Positions 28,509 to 29,477 of a DNA stretch of 64,000 bases are shown piece by piece. The stretch comes from Candidatus Altimarinota bacterium. GTDB lineage: Bacteria; Patescibacteriota; Gracilibacteria; UBA4473. Below the pieces are notes generated by a model. It was not told the DNA's origin. It saw nothing but the letters and a program-made list of their open reading frames with translations, and ran no database searches. A program made the position numbers and the translations under genes. Location: the NCBI GenBank assembly GCA_965231215.1, contig OZ246423.1:608001-672000 (forward strand). Reading direction: 5' to 3'. The number at the start of each line of letters is the position of its first letter. Position 1 is the first letter of the stretch.

Positions 28509-28527
28509 TTTAAAAAAAATTAAATAA

Positions 28528-28553
28528 AGAAATACCGCCCGAGTAGCCGGGGA
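28528..28553 (-). terminator. Terminator-like hairpin of Met leader 2
   Basis: CCCGG-CTAC-TCGGG followed by CGGTATTTCTTTATTT. Sequence resembles the leader 1 terminator. Confidence 0.45.
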
Positions 28554-28579
28554 AAACCTAGATCGTATTGATTAATTCC

Positions 28580-28660
28580 TTAACAACGTAGGTTCACCGC
28601 GACCACCGAAACGCTCATTTCGGTCATCATGTACATCATCAATTCTCGTAAGCTAAACAT
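28580..28660 (-). CDS. Putative Met-rich leader peptide 2: MFSLRELMMYMMTEMSVSVVAVNLRC (or from 28639)
   Basis: ATG immediately follows the methyltransferase stop (TAGATG). 5 Met in an 8-codon block. Confidence 0.7.
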   Translation of the reverse strand: MFSLRELMMYMMTEMSVSVVAVNLRC

Positions 28661-29281
28661 CTAAACTTTTGGGGTTAAACGAAAATATTGAGCTTCAGCT
28701 ATATCTGTTCCTGACACATTAACCGGCTTACGAACATAAGCTCGACCAATTCGTTCTACTCTATAACGATCGGTCACATAAGGCCGTGTCACCGTGCTGG
28801 CTGCATAAGAAATATCTTTCACATACAACGCCACCAATTCTTGCGCCGTCAGCGCCTCAATAACCCGACGTTGAATCGCACTGCCATCAACCCCACAGGC
28901 TGCAATATTTGGATTCTGTGGGAGGTTGGCCACAACCGTCCGCCCCTCTGCTCCCCACACATTATCGAGACTAAATTGACATTTCCCCCCTAAATTATTT
29001 GCAGTGGCATTATCTCGAGCAACACTCAATGAGGTTTTACACTTATCGGTGAGCAACACATTCTGCACTTGATCCTTAGTTGCCAACAGCAACCCTATGC
29101 ACCCCTTTCCACAACCAATATCTGCCATGTATGTAGACGGCCGAATCAATCCGTTTTGAATCAAATGCAATGCAGCCCTTCCAACATTTGAACGCTCGTG
29201 CACTCCAGGCAAGCTATGAAGTTCAAGCCCTAAATTTGGATCTGGTATATCTGGATAAATAGTAAGTGTGTCTAAAGGCAT
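28661..29281 (-). CDS. Class I SAM-dependent methyltransferase (HemK/MTS-like)
   Basis: Motif I ADIGCGKG, acidic LTD, ANLPQ motif IV variant, CGVDG..IQRR. Start MPLDT lies after the leader terminator. Confidence 0.82.
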   Translation of the reverse strand: MPLDTLTIYPDIPDPNLGLELHSLPGVHERSNVGRAALHLIQNGLIRPSTYMADIGCGKGCIGLLLATKDQVQNVLLTDKCKTSLSVARDNATANNLGGKCQFSLDNVWGAEGRTVVANLPQNPNIAACGVDGSAIQRRVIEALTAQELVALYVKDISYAASTVTRPYVTDRYRVERIGRAYVRKPVNVSGTDIAEAQYFRLTPKV

Positions 29282-29298
29282 AAGGTAAAAATTTACAT

Positions 29299-29325
29299 AA
29301 AAAAACCCGCCGAAGTAGGCGGGTT
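29299..29325 (-). terminator. Attenuator terminator of Met leader 1
   Basis: AACCCGCC-TACTTC-GGCGGGTT followed by TTTTT. Confidence 0.85.
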
Positions 29326-29351
29326 GGTACTTAGTTTCTTTTAATTTCTCA

Positions 29352-29408
29352 CTATGCACTAATCCGACCACTTCTCTTCAGAGAAGTCATCATCATAGTC
29401 ATAGCCAT
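29352..29408 (-). CDS. Putative Met-rich leader peptide 1: MAMTMMMTSLKRSGRISA
   Basis: 5 Met in the first 7 codons. Downstream of TTGACA-17-TACTTT and upstream of a strong terminator. Confidence 0.78.
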   Translation of the reverse strand: MAMTMMMTSLKRSGRISA

Positions 29409-29477
29409 GCTTAAATTTTGCACGGATTCAAAGTAATCTGAGTTTCCTTTTATGTCAAATTTATTAAAATAAAAACA

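What the first reader, a model, noticed from the sequence alone, without database searches (positions are those of the whole stretch)
28509..29460. Two tandem methionine-rich leader-peptide attenuators with a covarying hairpin
Seen in sequence: leader 1 (29408-29352) is MAMTMMMTSLKRSGRISA* and leader 2 (28660-28580) is MFSLRELMMYMMTEMSVSVVAVNLRC*. Both put the Met run at the 5' foot of a hairpin with identical flanks but different, compensating stems: ATGATGAC-TTCTC-tgaa-GAGAA-GTGGTCG versus ATGATGAC-CGAAAT-gagc-GTTTCG-GTGGTCG. In leader 1 the 3' arm can re-pair with the terminator 5' arm (GGTCGG.TTAGT with ACTAA...CCAACC). In leader 2 an analogous helix is possible (GTCG...AACCTA with TAGGTT...CGGC). 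Related terminators follow (CCCGCCTACTTCGGCGGGT+T run; CCCGGCTACTCGGGCGGTATTT). Established: this is the 1:2/2:3/3:4 geometry of trp/his/thr/leu attenuators, while Met genes are normally controlled by SAM riboswitches, T-boxes or MetJ/MetR. Inference: ribosome stalling at AUG runs when Met-tRNA is low causes antitermination. That would be a Met class of ribosome-mediated attenuator, used twice in series.
Basis: partly seen in the sequence, partly recalled or inferred. Interest (0 to 1): 0.9.

Follow-up and report, generated by a model that had tools for sequence, protein, structure and literature searches.

The report
Methionine-codon leader-peptide transcription attenuators
Two short methionine-rich reading frames, each followed by a transcription stop signal, look like switches that turn on methionine-salvage genes when methionine runs low; this kind of switch is known for other amino acids, but I found no published example for methionine.

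Summary
On the minus strand two short Met-rich ORFs (29423/29408-29352 and 28660-28580) are each followed by a terminator-like hairpin. Both share an AUGAUG...hairpin...GGUCG core. The genome is a 1.33-Mb Patescibacteria (CPR) chromosome that uses the standard code and no Shine-Dalgarno sites. Covariance-model scans found 25 Met-run leaders: 20 genomes in 14 genera of the window's family, and 4 genomes in 3 other families of its class. Their downstream genes are methionine genes: homoserine O-acyltransferase (MetA/HTS), methionyl-tRNA synthetase, homocysteine S-methyltransferase, a free-Met-sulfoxide-reductase-like GAF protein, and a weak SAM hydroxide adenosyltransferase match. An antiterminator helix between the GGUCG segment and the terminator 5' arm covaries. 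GGUCG is read in all three frames, so its conservation is at the RNA level. In masked-ribosome folding the terminator is lost only when the A site sits on the Met run (23 of 25 leaders). Four homologous leaders carry Trp runs instead. Rfam has no family for it, and seven literature searches found no Met-codon attenuator. This is comparative and thermodynamic support only; no expression data exist. Leader 2 in this genome has a weak terminator.

The parts
29430..29458 (-). Promoter of the operon: -35 TTGACA (29458-29453), 17-nt spacer, -10 TACTTT (29435-29430). It ends 6 nt before GTG 29423, so the transcript would be leaderless or nearly so (inferred).
   Evidence: Read. It is below the consensus scan's threshold (0 promoter-like sites in 27000-30500). 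A TTGACA at the same distance from the leader start codon recurs in relatives.
29352..29423 (-). Leader peptide 1, MQNLSMAMTMMMTSLKRSGRISA* from GTG 29423, or MAMTMMM... from ATG 29408. Met codons lie at 29408, 29402 and 29396-29388. The stop is TAG 29354-29352.
   Evidence: Orthologous ORFs are MNYLLMAMAMMM.., MKNLLMAMPMMM.. and MNKKAAVATMMM.. in the same genus.
29352..29405 (-). Anti-antiterminator hairpin (segments 1:2). The 5' arm holds the Met codons. The apical stem is ACTTCTC/GAGAAGT (29387-29370). UGAU of the Met run pairs with GUCG of GGTCGG (29369-29364).
   Evidence: MFE fold. The apical stem differs between relatives (CUCUU/AAGGG, CCCUU/AAGGG, CGAG/CUCG, CUCCA/UGGAG, CCGAAAU/GUUUCGG) while still pairing.
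29312..29376 (-). Antiterminator (segments 2:3). GAGAAGUGGUCGGAUUAGU pairs with ACUAAGUACCAACCCGCCUACUUC, that is, with the 5' arm and loop of the terminator.
   Evidence: Constrained folds, the RNAalifold consensus of 12 leaders, pair counts and the CM alignment.
29299..29325 (-). Intrinsic terminator 1: AACCCGCC-TACTTC-GGCGGGTT followed by a run of 7 T.
   Evidence: 8 pairs, 6 GC; -12.2 kcal/mol.
28661..29281 (-). Class I SAM-dependent methyltransferase (206 aa, MTS small domain), substrate unknown. It is the first gene behind leader 1.
   Evidence: Pfam PF05175, 41.7 bits. Only sub-threshold NCBIfam hits, to PrmC/HemK and RsmC. An ortholog sits behind leader 1 in G003.
28580..28660 (-). Leader peptide 2, MFSLRELMMYMMTEMSVSVVAVNLRC*. 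Its ATG directly abuts the methyltransferase stop codon (TAG-ATG). Met codons lie at 28639, 28636, 28630, 28627 and 28618.
   Evidence: Orthologs are MMQALMRTEMKVSVVAVSLN* (G002) and MCYKTLTMLMAMMRTEMQISGVVVSLH* (G001).
28527..28624 (-). Leader 2 RNA switch: hairpin ACCGAAAT-GAGC-GTTTCGGT (28624-28605), GGTCG (28604-28600), a long antiterminator with TAGGTTTTCCCCGGCT, and a weak terminator CCCGGCTACTCGGG (28551-28538) with an interrupted U tract.
   Evidence: R2, 80.8 bits. For the free RNA, P(terminator) is only 0.10.
27369..28508 (-). FAD/NAD(P)-binding oxidoreductase (379 aa), specificity unknown. It is the first gene behind leader 2.
   Evidence: Pfam PF07992, 31.3 bits. No PDB sequence hit. 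The protein atlas gives Pyr_redox_2/NAD_binding_9 clusters. The same gene follows a Met leader in G004, G009 and G002.
26676..27362 (-). GAF-domain protein (228 aa), distantly related to free methionine-R-sulfoxide reductase (fRMsr).
   Evidence: Pfam GAF, 37.8 bits. The best PDB hits are 1f5m/3ko6 (yeast YKL069W; E 6.5e-6) and 3ksf-3ksi. That these entries are fRMsr is my recall. The 'CD' motif aligns, but the two other Cys of the yeast protein do not.

Best explanation
These are ribosome-mediated (leader-peptide) transcription attenuators whose regulatory codons are AUG, so they sense charged elongator Met-tRNA.

Proposed mechanism for leader 1:
1. Transcription starts a few nucleotides before the leader start codon, and a ribosome translates the 23-codon leader.
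2. With enough Met-tRNA, the ribosome runs to the stop codon. The stop lies at the 3' end of segment 2 (GAGAAGUGGUCGGAUUAGUG). The ribosome covers that segment, the terminator forms, and transcription ends before the methyltransferase gene.
3. With too little Met-tRNA, the ribosome stalls with its A site on the AUG run. This unzips the Met-codon arm of the first hairpin and leaves segment 2 free. Segment 2 pairs with the 5' arm and loop of the terminator, and RNA polymerase reads through.
4. With no ribosome at all, the 1:2 hairpin and the terminator both form.

GUCG is the wobble complement of UGAU. The same segment can therefore pair weakly with the Met codons or more strongly with the terminator arm.

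Leader 2 repeats the device between the methyltransferase gene and the oxidoreductase/fRMsr-like genes. Its start codon abuts the upstream stop, so terminating ribosomes could feed it.

Shown here: the sequence anatomy, its conservation, covariation of the antiterminator, the thermodynamic switch, and the link to methionine genes. Inferred: the transcription start, translation of the leaders, and the response to methionine.
For: (1) Conservation of the Met run. I read 25 Met-run leaders from the CM hits (listed).
- 21 leaders come from 20 genomes in 14 genera among the 43 genomes of the window's family. Two of these, in G004 and G010, were counted by eye.
- 4 leaders come from 3 other families among the 151 genomes sampled from the class.
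- Each has 4-10 Met in 10-32 codons, always in frame with a start codon near the promoter.

(2) Regulon. Genes behind the leaders:
- MetA/HTS (PF04204) in G001, G002, G055, G042, G015, G024, G168 and G174.
- MetRS (PF09334) in G057 directly, and further downstream in G020 and G051.
- Homocysteine S-methyltransferase (PF02574, 121.6 bits) in G170.
- The oxidoreductase plus fRMsr-like GAF pair in G000, G004 and G009, and the oxidoreductase alone after leader 2 in G002.
- SAM_HAT_N at 26.0 bits against a cutoff of 26.3 in G041.
- Of the 8 HTS genes found in 43 family genomes, 6 lie directly behind a Met leader, 1 lies in a leader-headed operon, and 1 has none.

(3) Antiterminator. The RNAalifold consensus of 12 leaders is the 2:3 helix.
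- 86.9% of cells are paired, against 70.6% in shuffles (0 of 500 reach it) and 38-47% when the partner is slid.
- 30 cells changed on both sides, against 11.1 expected.

(4) RNA-level conservation. GGUCG is read in three different frames in different leaders (sequences). The peptide tails are not conserved.

(5) Switch logic. I masked A-15..A+12 for a ribosome at each codon.
- P(terminator) falls below 0.2 in a contiguous window that overlaps the Met run in 23 of 25 Met leaders. For leader 1 it is 0.04-0.08 at AUG10-12 and ACU13, and at least 0.97 at every other position.
- It is at least 0.9 at the stop codon in 19 of 25.

(6) Codon swap. Four homologous leaders (R2 E 4e-6 to 9e-3) carry WW or WWW at the same place, in the same frame as leader 2 (...EVAVNI* against ...VVAVNLRC*). 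Their low-terminator windows cover the Trp run in 4 of 4.

(7) Translatability. The genome does not use Shine-Dalgarno sites: 44 of 780 starts have an SD-like motif, against 108 of 780 control positions. The lack of an SD before the leaders is therefore normal for this genome.

(8) No known RNA family. There are 0 Rfam gathering hits.
Against: - No expression, termination or starvation data exist for any of these uncultivated organisms.
- In the window's own genome the controlled genes are only indirectly methionine genes. They are a methyltransferase that should consume SAM, an oxidoreductase of unknown specificity, and a GAF protein that matches fRMsr only weakly. The GAF protein lacks two of the three Cys seen in the yeast alignment. 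G000 has no HTS.
- Leader 2 has a poor terminator. It folds no better than 9 of 200 shuffles, and its free RNA favours the antiterminator (P(terminator) 0.10). It may be leaky or decaying.
- Two of 25 Met leaders (G001_L2, G016) show no low-terminator window. Six of 25 do not restore the terminator at the stop codon. Several free RNAs fold as antiterminators.
- The footprint used for the mask is an assumption.
- The covariation test used a structure derived from the same alignment, and the sequences are related to one another.
- Met starvation should also limit initiation, which would favour termination. That is a design problem for any Met attenuator.
- Seven Met leaders precede proteins with no family assignment or no clear gene: G013, G043, G010, G091, the 84-aa ORF behind the second leader of G055, G041 (match just below cutoff) and G016 (no clear gene).
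Confidence: 0.8

Rival explanations
1. The element is a ribosome-dependent attenuator, but it does not sense the Met-tRNA supply specifically. It might sense general translation speed, initiator-tRNA formylation or one-carbon status (glyA is a neighbour), or stalling caused by the Met-rich nascent chain.
For: glyA lies next to the operon in G000, G003 and G004. Homologous Trp-run leaders precede glyA in four genomes, so the scaffold is not tied to one amino acid. The genes controlled in this genome are not classical met genes.
Against: The invariant feature of 25 leaders is a run of internal AUG codons placed exactly where stalling opens the antiterminator. The most frequent downstream genes are MetA/HTS and MetRS, and homocysteine methyltransferase also occurs. 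The peptide outside the Met run is not conserved.
Confidence: 0.09
2. It is a riboswitch-like or protein- or tRNA-binding RNA. AUGAUG and GGUCG would be conserved as ligand- or partner-binding nucleotides, and the ORF would be incidental.
For: The conserved nucleotides (AUGAUG, GGUCG) flank a variable hairpin, as in many small riboswitch motifs. GGUCG conservation is at the RNA level. The element ends in a terminator.
Against: No Rfam family reaches its threshold. All 25 leaders keep an open frame that runs from a start codon next to the promoter, through the Met run, to a stop at the end of segment 2. The length difference between orthologs inside the ORF is 3 nt. The Met run is replaced by a Trp run in homologs, which fits a codon-based sensor but not a fixed binding site. 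There is no conserved multi-helix core.
Confidence: 0.05
3. The short ORFs encode functional Met-rich micropeptides, and the hairpins are ordinary gene-end terminators.
For: The ORFs are conserved across genera, with an N-terminal MQ(N/K) and a Met cluster. They are probably translated from leaderless transcripts.
Against: The C-terminal halves are not conserved as peptides, while the underlying GGUCG is conserved in three frames. The terminator is followed within about 20-70 nt by co-oriented genes with no promoter of their own in most loci. A covarying helix that competes with the terminator has no role in a simple gene end.
Confidence: 0.04

Closest known systems
Classical leader-peptide attenuators of amino-acid operons and aaRS genes in Proteobacteria (trpL, hisL, leuL, thrL, pheL, pheST leader; Rfam RF00513, RF00514, RF00512, RF00506, RF01859)
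   Same: A short ORF with a run of codons for the regulated amino acid. Three overlapping helices (1:2, 2:3, 3:4), with 3:4 an intrinsic terminator. The stop codon is placed so that a finishing ribosome blocks 2:3. The location is upstream of biosynthesis or aminoacyl-tRNA synthetase genes. The weak Trp_leader match (27.8 bits) reflects this shared shape.
   Different: The regulatory codon is AUG, which is also the start codon. The seven literature searches found no Met example. There is no Shine-Dalgarno site and probably a leaderless transcript. The host is a CPR bacterium with a 1.3-Mb genome. Copies occur between genes of one operon and back to back. There is no sequence homology, and the Rfam gathering scores are not reached.
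Methionine-specific T-box and SAM riboswitches (SAM-I/S-box, SAM-II and others), MetJ/MetR
   Same: They control the same kinds of genes (metA, Met salvage), often through a terminator/antiterminator choice. The T-box also reads tRNA-Met charging.
   Different: There is no T-box or SAM aptamer by Rfam. Sensing here would go through the translating ribosome, not through direct RNA-tRNA or RNA-SAM contact.
metXZ RNA element of beta-proteobacteria (Leyn et al. 2014, PMC4239095; abstract and passages of the section 'A novel RNA regulatory element' read)
   Same: A candidate terminator/antiterminator element upstream of methionine biosynthesis genes, found by comparative genomics.
   Different: That element is described as six conserved regions forming a pseudoknot, and no leader peptide is mentioned ('leader' occurs once and 'codons' not at all in the text). 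The present element is a translated Met-run ORF with a simple hairpin.

Membership tests
Leader-peptide (ribosome-mediated) transcription attenuators | A short ORF carrying a cluster of codons for one amino acid | tested here: met
   Leader 1 has 6 Met in 23 codons and leader 2 has 6 in 26. The cluster is conserved in 25 leaders.
Leader-peptide (ribosome-mediated) transcription attenuators | An intrinsic terminator between the leader ORF and the first structural gene | tested here: met
   Leader 1 has 8 pairs plus T7. Leader 2 has only a weak one (5 pairs, interrupted U tract). Relatives have terminators of -3.5 to -17.1 kcal/mol.
Leader-peptide (ribosome-mediated) transcription attenuators | A mutually exclusive antiterminator that overlaps the terminator 5' arm | tested here: met
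   RNAalifold consensus of 12 leaders. 86.9% of cells are paired, 30 cells changed on both sides, 0 of 500 shuffles reach this, and slid controls give 38-47%.
Leader-peptide (ribosome-mediated) transcription attenuators | The regulatory codons lie in the 5' arm of an upstream helix, so that a stalled ribosome frees the antiterminator and a ribosome at the stop codon blocks it | tested here: met
   In masked-ribosome partition-function folds, the low-terminator window overlaps the Met run in 23 of 25 Met leaders. The terminator is restored at the stop codon in 19 of 25. The footprint is an assumption.
Leader-peptide (ribosome-mediated) transcription attenuators | Control of genes for synthesis, salvage or charging of the same amino acid | tested here: met
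   HTS, MetRS and homocysteine S-methyltransferase lie downstream in relatives. In the window itself there is only an fRMsr-like GAF protein, an oxidoreductase and a methyltransferase.
Leader-peptide (ribosome-mediated) transcription attenuators | Read-through rises when the cognate aminoacyl-tRNA is scarce and depends on translation of the leader | not testable with these tools
   No RNA run is listed for this sequence, and the organisms are uncultivated.
Rfam Trp_leader (RF00513) and other Rfam leaders | A score at or above the family's gathering threshold | tested here: not met
   Trp_leader 27.8 against 41. Phe_leader 21.1 against 55. Leu_leader 14.3 against 50.
SAM riboswitches / T-box | A match to the aptamer or T-box covariance model | tested here: not met
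   No such family appears among the matches up to E = 10 in 28300-29700. There are 0 gathering hits in the 64-kb window.

The most novel reading that the evidence does not exclude
This is the first methionine-specific leader-peptide attenuator class, and the first cis-regulatory RNA family defined in Patescibacteria (CPR). It would be a modular, leaderless switch scaffold whose sensed amino acid can be re-set by swapping the codon run. Met and Trp versions were seen here, and possibly an Asn version before a class II aaRS gene. Its regulon would mark out the methionine-scavenging toolkit of these auxotrophic ultrasmall bacteria: MetA-like acyltransferase, fRMsr-like GAF protein with a dedicated flavoprotein, homocysteine methyltransferase, MetRS, and several protein families of unknown function.
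Probability: 0.6. Interest if true: 0.8.

Novelty: new variant of a known kind. Interest (0 to 1): 0.72.

Why it matters
- Attenuation by leader peptides is a textbook mechanism, described (from my recall) for Trp, His, Leu, Ile/Val, Thr and Phe. A Met version has been conspicuously missing. One likely reason is that AUG is also the start codon and Met starvation hampers initiation. A natural Met attenuator that is conserved across many genera shows the design is viable. It also gives a compact system for testing how initiation and elongation demands for Met are balanced.
- It is a rare handle on gene regulation in CPR bacteria, which are uncultivated and poorly understood.
- The genes behind the leaders are candidates for methionine scavenging in organisms thought to depend on hosts for amino acids. 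They include several proteins with no family assignment.
- The Met/Trp codon swap in one scaffold is a natural experiment in how attenuator specificity evolves.

Tried and rejected
- A third Met-rich ORF with a terminator (genome 72532-72458) is an out-of-frame reading of a GATGGAAAT repeat at the 3' end of a gene. I rejected it.
- Many R1 and R2 hits below about 35 bits are plain terminators at gene 3' ends or coding ATGATG repeats. I rejected them by eye.
- My first terminator-tracking script was fooled by A-run/U-run pairing. I redid it on sequences cut before the U tract.
- The apical hairpin could not be tested with the count of structure pairs, because MAFFT puts the stems of different subfamilies out of register. 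I compared them sequence by sequence instead.
- The element upstream of glyA in this genome is not recognised by model R2.
- The oxidoreductase has no PDB sequence relative and only generic flavoprotein neighbours in the protein atlas.
- RNA evidence: no RNA holder is listed for window 27300-29700. I did not use read laying because only contigs of DNA-type runs were offered.
- A code-25 (UGA = Gly) reading was considered, because the relative is labelled Candidatus Altimarinota. I rejected it for this genome. Under table 11, 1033 ORFs of at least 150 codons cover 1.215 of 1.326 Mb, and 137 of them end in TGA.
- Literature: seven full-text searches found no Met-codon leader-peptide attenuator and no attenuator described in CPR. 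The library lacks most subscription journals, and supplements were not seen, so an earlier description cannot be excluded.
  - Passages read: PMC4239095, PMC1262725 and PMC2965389.
  - Vitreschak 2004 and Merino & Yanofsky 2005 are recalled only and were not read.
- The structure-prediction, complex-prediction and homolog-search tools were not used.
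Full report
**What is in the window.** On the minus strand the order is as follows:
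- A promoter, TTGACA-17-TACTTT (29458-29430).
- A short ORF, MAMTMMMTSLKRSGRISA* from ATG 29408, or MQNLSMAMTMMM... from the in-frame GTG 29423.
- A strong intrinsic terminator at 29325-29304 plus T7.
- A 206-aa MTS-type methyltransferase, 29281-28661 (PF05175).
- A second short ORF whose ATG abuts the methyltransferase stop codon, MFSLRELMMYMMTEMSVSVVAVNLRC*, 28660-28580.
- A weak terminator-like hairpin, 28551-28538.
- A 379-aa FAD/NAD(P) oxidoreductase, 28508-27369.
- A 228-aa GAF protein, 27362-26676.
- After another small ORF plus terminator, glyA, 26478-25201.

Leader 1 folds far better than shuffles (z -6.1). Leader 2 does not (z -1.84).

**The organism.** The window lies in a closed 1.33-Mb genome.
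- A near-identical relative (G004) is the record OZ245819.1, 'MAG: Candidatus Altimarinota bacterium', in the Patescibacteria group.
- The genome reads well under the standard code.
- SD-like motifs are depleted before gene starts: 44 of 780, against 108 of 780 control positions. An SD-less leader ORF is therefore normal here.

**It matches no known RNA family.** Rfam gives no gathering hit in the 64 kb. With permissive settings, the best hit in 28300-29700 is Trp_leader at 27.8 bits (cutoff 41), mostly on the terminator. No SAM riboswitch or T-box appears.

**Conservation.** A DNA search of 41 relatives found leader 1 in three other species of the genus, and leader 2 in one.
- Model R1, built from three leaders, was scanned over the 43 genomes of the family.
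- Model R2, built from twelve leaders, was scanned over the same 43 genomes, over 151 genomes sampled from the class, and over 151 sampled from the phylum.
- After discarding hits that were plain terminators or coding ATGATG repeats, I read 25 Met-run leaders. They come from 20 genomes in 14 genera of the family and 4 genomes in 3 other families of the class. I found none among the phylum sample outside the class.
- Examples: MQKNIMAMGMMMNEETRRSK*, MQKNTMMMLMMMFEETRRSK*, MQNLIAMMMFMMMMPARVWSR*, MKGFVHTMMMFMMMDLALAG*, MKSAMQMRMMMCW*, MYQSTQMMMAMMMRTMRRLMCCM*.
- In each leader the Met run is in frame with an ATG or GTG a few nucleotides after a TTGACA-17-TAnnnT promoter. The transcripts are therefore probably leaderless (inferred).
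- Outside the Met run the peptides differ.
- The nucleotide motif GGUCG is invariant in the 12-leader alignment but is read in three different frames: GGT CGG, (N)GG TCG, and G GTC G. Its conservation is therefore at the RNA level.

**Genes behind the leaders.**
- MetA/HTS in eight genomes (PF04204).
- Methionyl-tRNA synthetase directly in G057, and further downstream in G020 and G051 (PF09334).
- Homocysteine S-methyltransferase in G170 (PF02574).
- The oxidoreductase plus GAF pair in G000, G004 and G009, and the oxidoreductase after leader 2 in G002.
- A protein just below the SAM_HAT_N cutoff in G041.
- The methyltransferase in G000 and G003.
- Proteins without a family in G013, G043, G010 and G091, and an 84-aa ORF in G055. 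There is no clear gene in G016.
- A census of HTS found 8 genes in 43 family genomes. Six lie directly behind a Met leader. One (G004) is the third gene of a leader-headed operon. One (G009) has no leader.
- The GAF protein's best solved relatives are 1f5m/3ko6 and 3ksf-3ksi. I recall these as free methionine-R-sulfoxide reductases. The 'CD' motif aligns, but the other two Cys of the yeast protein do not.
- Together this is a coherent methionine acquisition and charging regulon. The window's own genome holds only its less obvious members and has no HTS.

**RNA switch.** The minimum-energy fold of leader 1 pairs the Met-codon region with GAGAAGU.GGUCG...UUAGU.GCAUAG and leaves the terminator intact.
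- GUCG is the wobble complement of UGAU.
- RNAalifold on the twelve-leader alignment returns the alternative helix between the GGUCG segment and the terminator 5' arm.
- On that helix 86.9% of cells pair. Shuffles give 70.6% (0 of 500 reach the observed value), and slid partners give 38-47%. Thirty cells changed on both sides, against 11.1 expected.
- Caveat: the structure was derived from the same alignment, and the rows are related to one another.
- I then masked A-15..A+12 for a ribosome at each codon and computed the probability of the terminator helix.
  - Leader 1: 0.04-0.08 with the A site on AUG10, AUG11, AUG12 or ACU13; at least 0.97 at every other codon, at the stop codon and for free RNA.
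  - All leaders: 23 of 25 Met leaders have such a window, always overlapping the Met run.
  - At the stop codon 19 of 25 have the terminator back at 0.9 or more.
  - Exceptions: G001_L2 and G016 have no window. G013, G043, G000_L2, G001_L2, G091 and G170 do not restore the terminator at the stop.
  - Leader 2 of this genome behaves as a switch at the Met codons (0.00 at AUG8-AUG15). Its weak terminator is mostly out-competed even in free RNA (0.10).

**Codon swap.** R2 also found four leaders with the same scaffold and the same frame as leader 2, but with Trp runs.
- They are MNNLIATYSWWTDETSEVAVNI*, MNILIATQSWWCSDEESEVAVNI*, MNYSLATLNWWWTPSGGEVAVSI* and MQNTSKTSWWRLNKLDLKVAVSIL*.
- Three lie upstream of a small ORF followed by glyA. 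The fourth (G051) lies about 380 nt upstream of glyA with no small ORF listed.
- Their low-terminator windows cover the Trp codons in 4 of 4.
- Replacing the codon run inside a conserved switch is what a ribosome-read sensor predicts. It is hard to reconcile with a fixed ligand-binding motif.

**Arrangement and turnover.**
- In G001 a leader-1 type and a leader-2 type stand back to back before HTS.
- In G002 an HTS-like gene lies between them.
- In G000 the methyltransferase lies between them.
- In G004, which is 99% identical over leader 1, the methyltransferase and leader 2 are absent and an HTS-like gene follows the GAF gene.
- The operon is therefore a hot spot of gene gain and loss behind a stable switch.

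**Comparison and novelty.** The anatomy meets every sequence-level criterion of a classical leader-peptide attenuator (see the membership table). It is not a member of any Rfam leader family.
- Seven full-text searches found no attenuator with Met regulatory codons and none in CPR.
- The metXZ element of beta-proteobacteria is a pseudoknot-type RNA with no leader peptide (PMC4239095, passages read).
- Seliverstov et al. report no conserved RNA structure before methionine operons in Actinobacteria (PMC1262725, passages).
- Naville and Gautheret state that, as of 2010, leader-peptide systems were known only in Proteobacteria and Actinobacteria, and they add Firmicutes (PMC2965389, passages).
- The library is incomplete and supplements were closed, so priority cannot be proven.
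- I rate it a new variant of a known kind: a known mechanism, with a new sensed amino acid and a new phylum.

**Verdict.** The response to methionine and the translation of the leaders remain to be shown.

Noticed in passing
window 26507-26620 (- strand), between the GAF gene and glyA: A third leader-like unit. It has a small ORF MTHKTSKNLTSNRPSGKGRKEV* (26620-26552) that contains a GGTCG, a hairpin GACCTT...AAGGTC, and a 9-pair terminator at 26527-26507 plus a T run, just before glyA. It has no obvious codon run, and model R2 does not recognise it.
   Followed up: partly
L053 (G044), L055 (G045), L057 (G050), L051 (G051): hits at about 1501-1625 (oriented): Homologous leaders carry Trp runs (SWW, WWW) in place of Met runs. 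Three lie upstream of a 97-114-aa ORF of unknown family followed by glyA (SHMT); in G051 glyA follows without such an ORF. Why SHMT would answer to Trp codons is unexplained.
   Followed up: partly
L080 (G223, another family of the phylum) 1501-1616: A weak R2 hit (E 0.0044) turns out to be an Asn-rich short ORF, MKTQRNNNFDANNNWA*, with a terminator. It lies about 330 nt upstream of a class II D/K/N aminoacyl-tRNA synthetase (PF00152, 185.8 bits). Leader-peptide attenuators may be common before aaRS genes in CPR.
   Followed up: partly
L011 2584-2826 and L061 1653-1904 (G055): Two paralogous proteins of 81-84 aa share a ...CGNE(L/V)LWG(Q/K)G... motif and have no Pfam family. One follows HTS in a Met-leader operon. 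The other has its own Met leader.
   Followed up: no
L063 (G009 C40) 1501-1569: A partial R2 hit (GGTCGCG... plus terminator, with no Met ORF seen) lies directly before a 505-aa HMGL-like protein (PF00682, 106.7 bits). It may be another attenuator of the same scaffold with a different sensor.
   Followed up: no
window 27000-30500: The sigma-70 consensus scan found 0 promoter-like sites where shuffles give 7.8 +/- 2.9. Even so, a perfect TTGACA with a weak -10 precedes the leaders in many genera. Promoters here seem to rely on the -35 box.
   Followed up: no
G000 versus G004 (L078), operon downstream of leader 1: Two genomes with 99% identical leader 1 and a 97% identical oxidoreductase differ by presence or absence of the methyltransferase plus leader 2 (G000 only) and of an HTS-like gene (G004 only). 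This points to recent gene turnover inside the regulated operon.
   Followed up: partly
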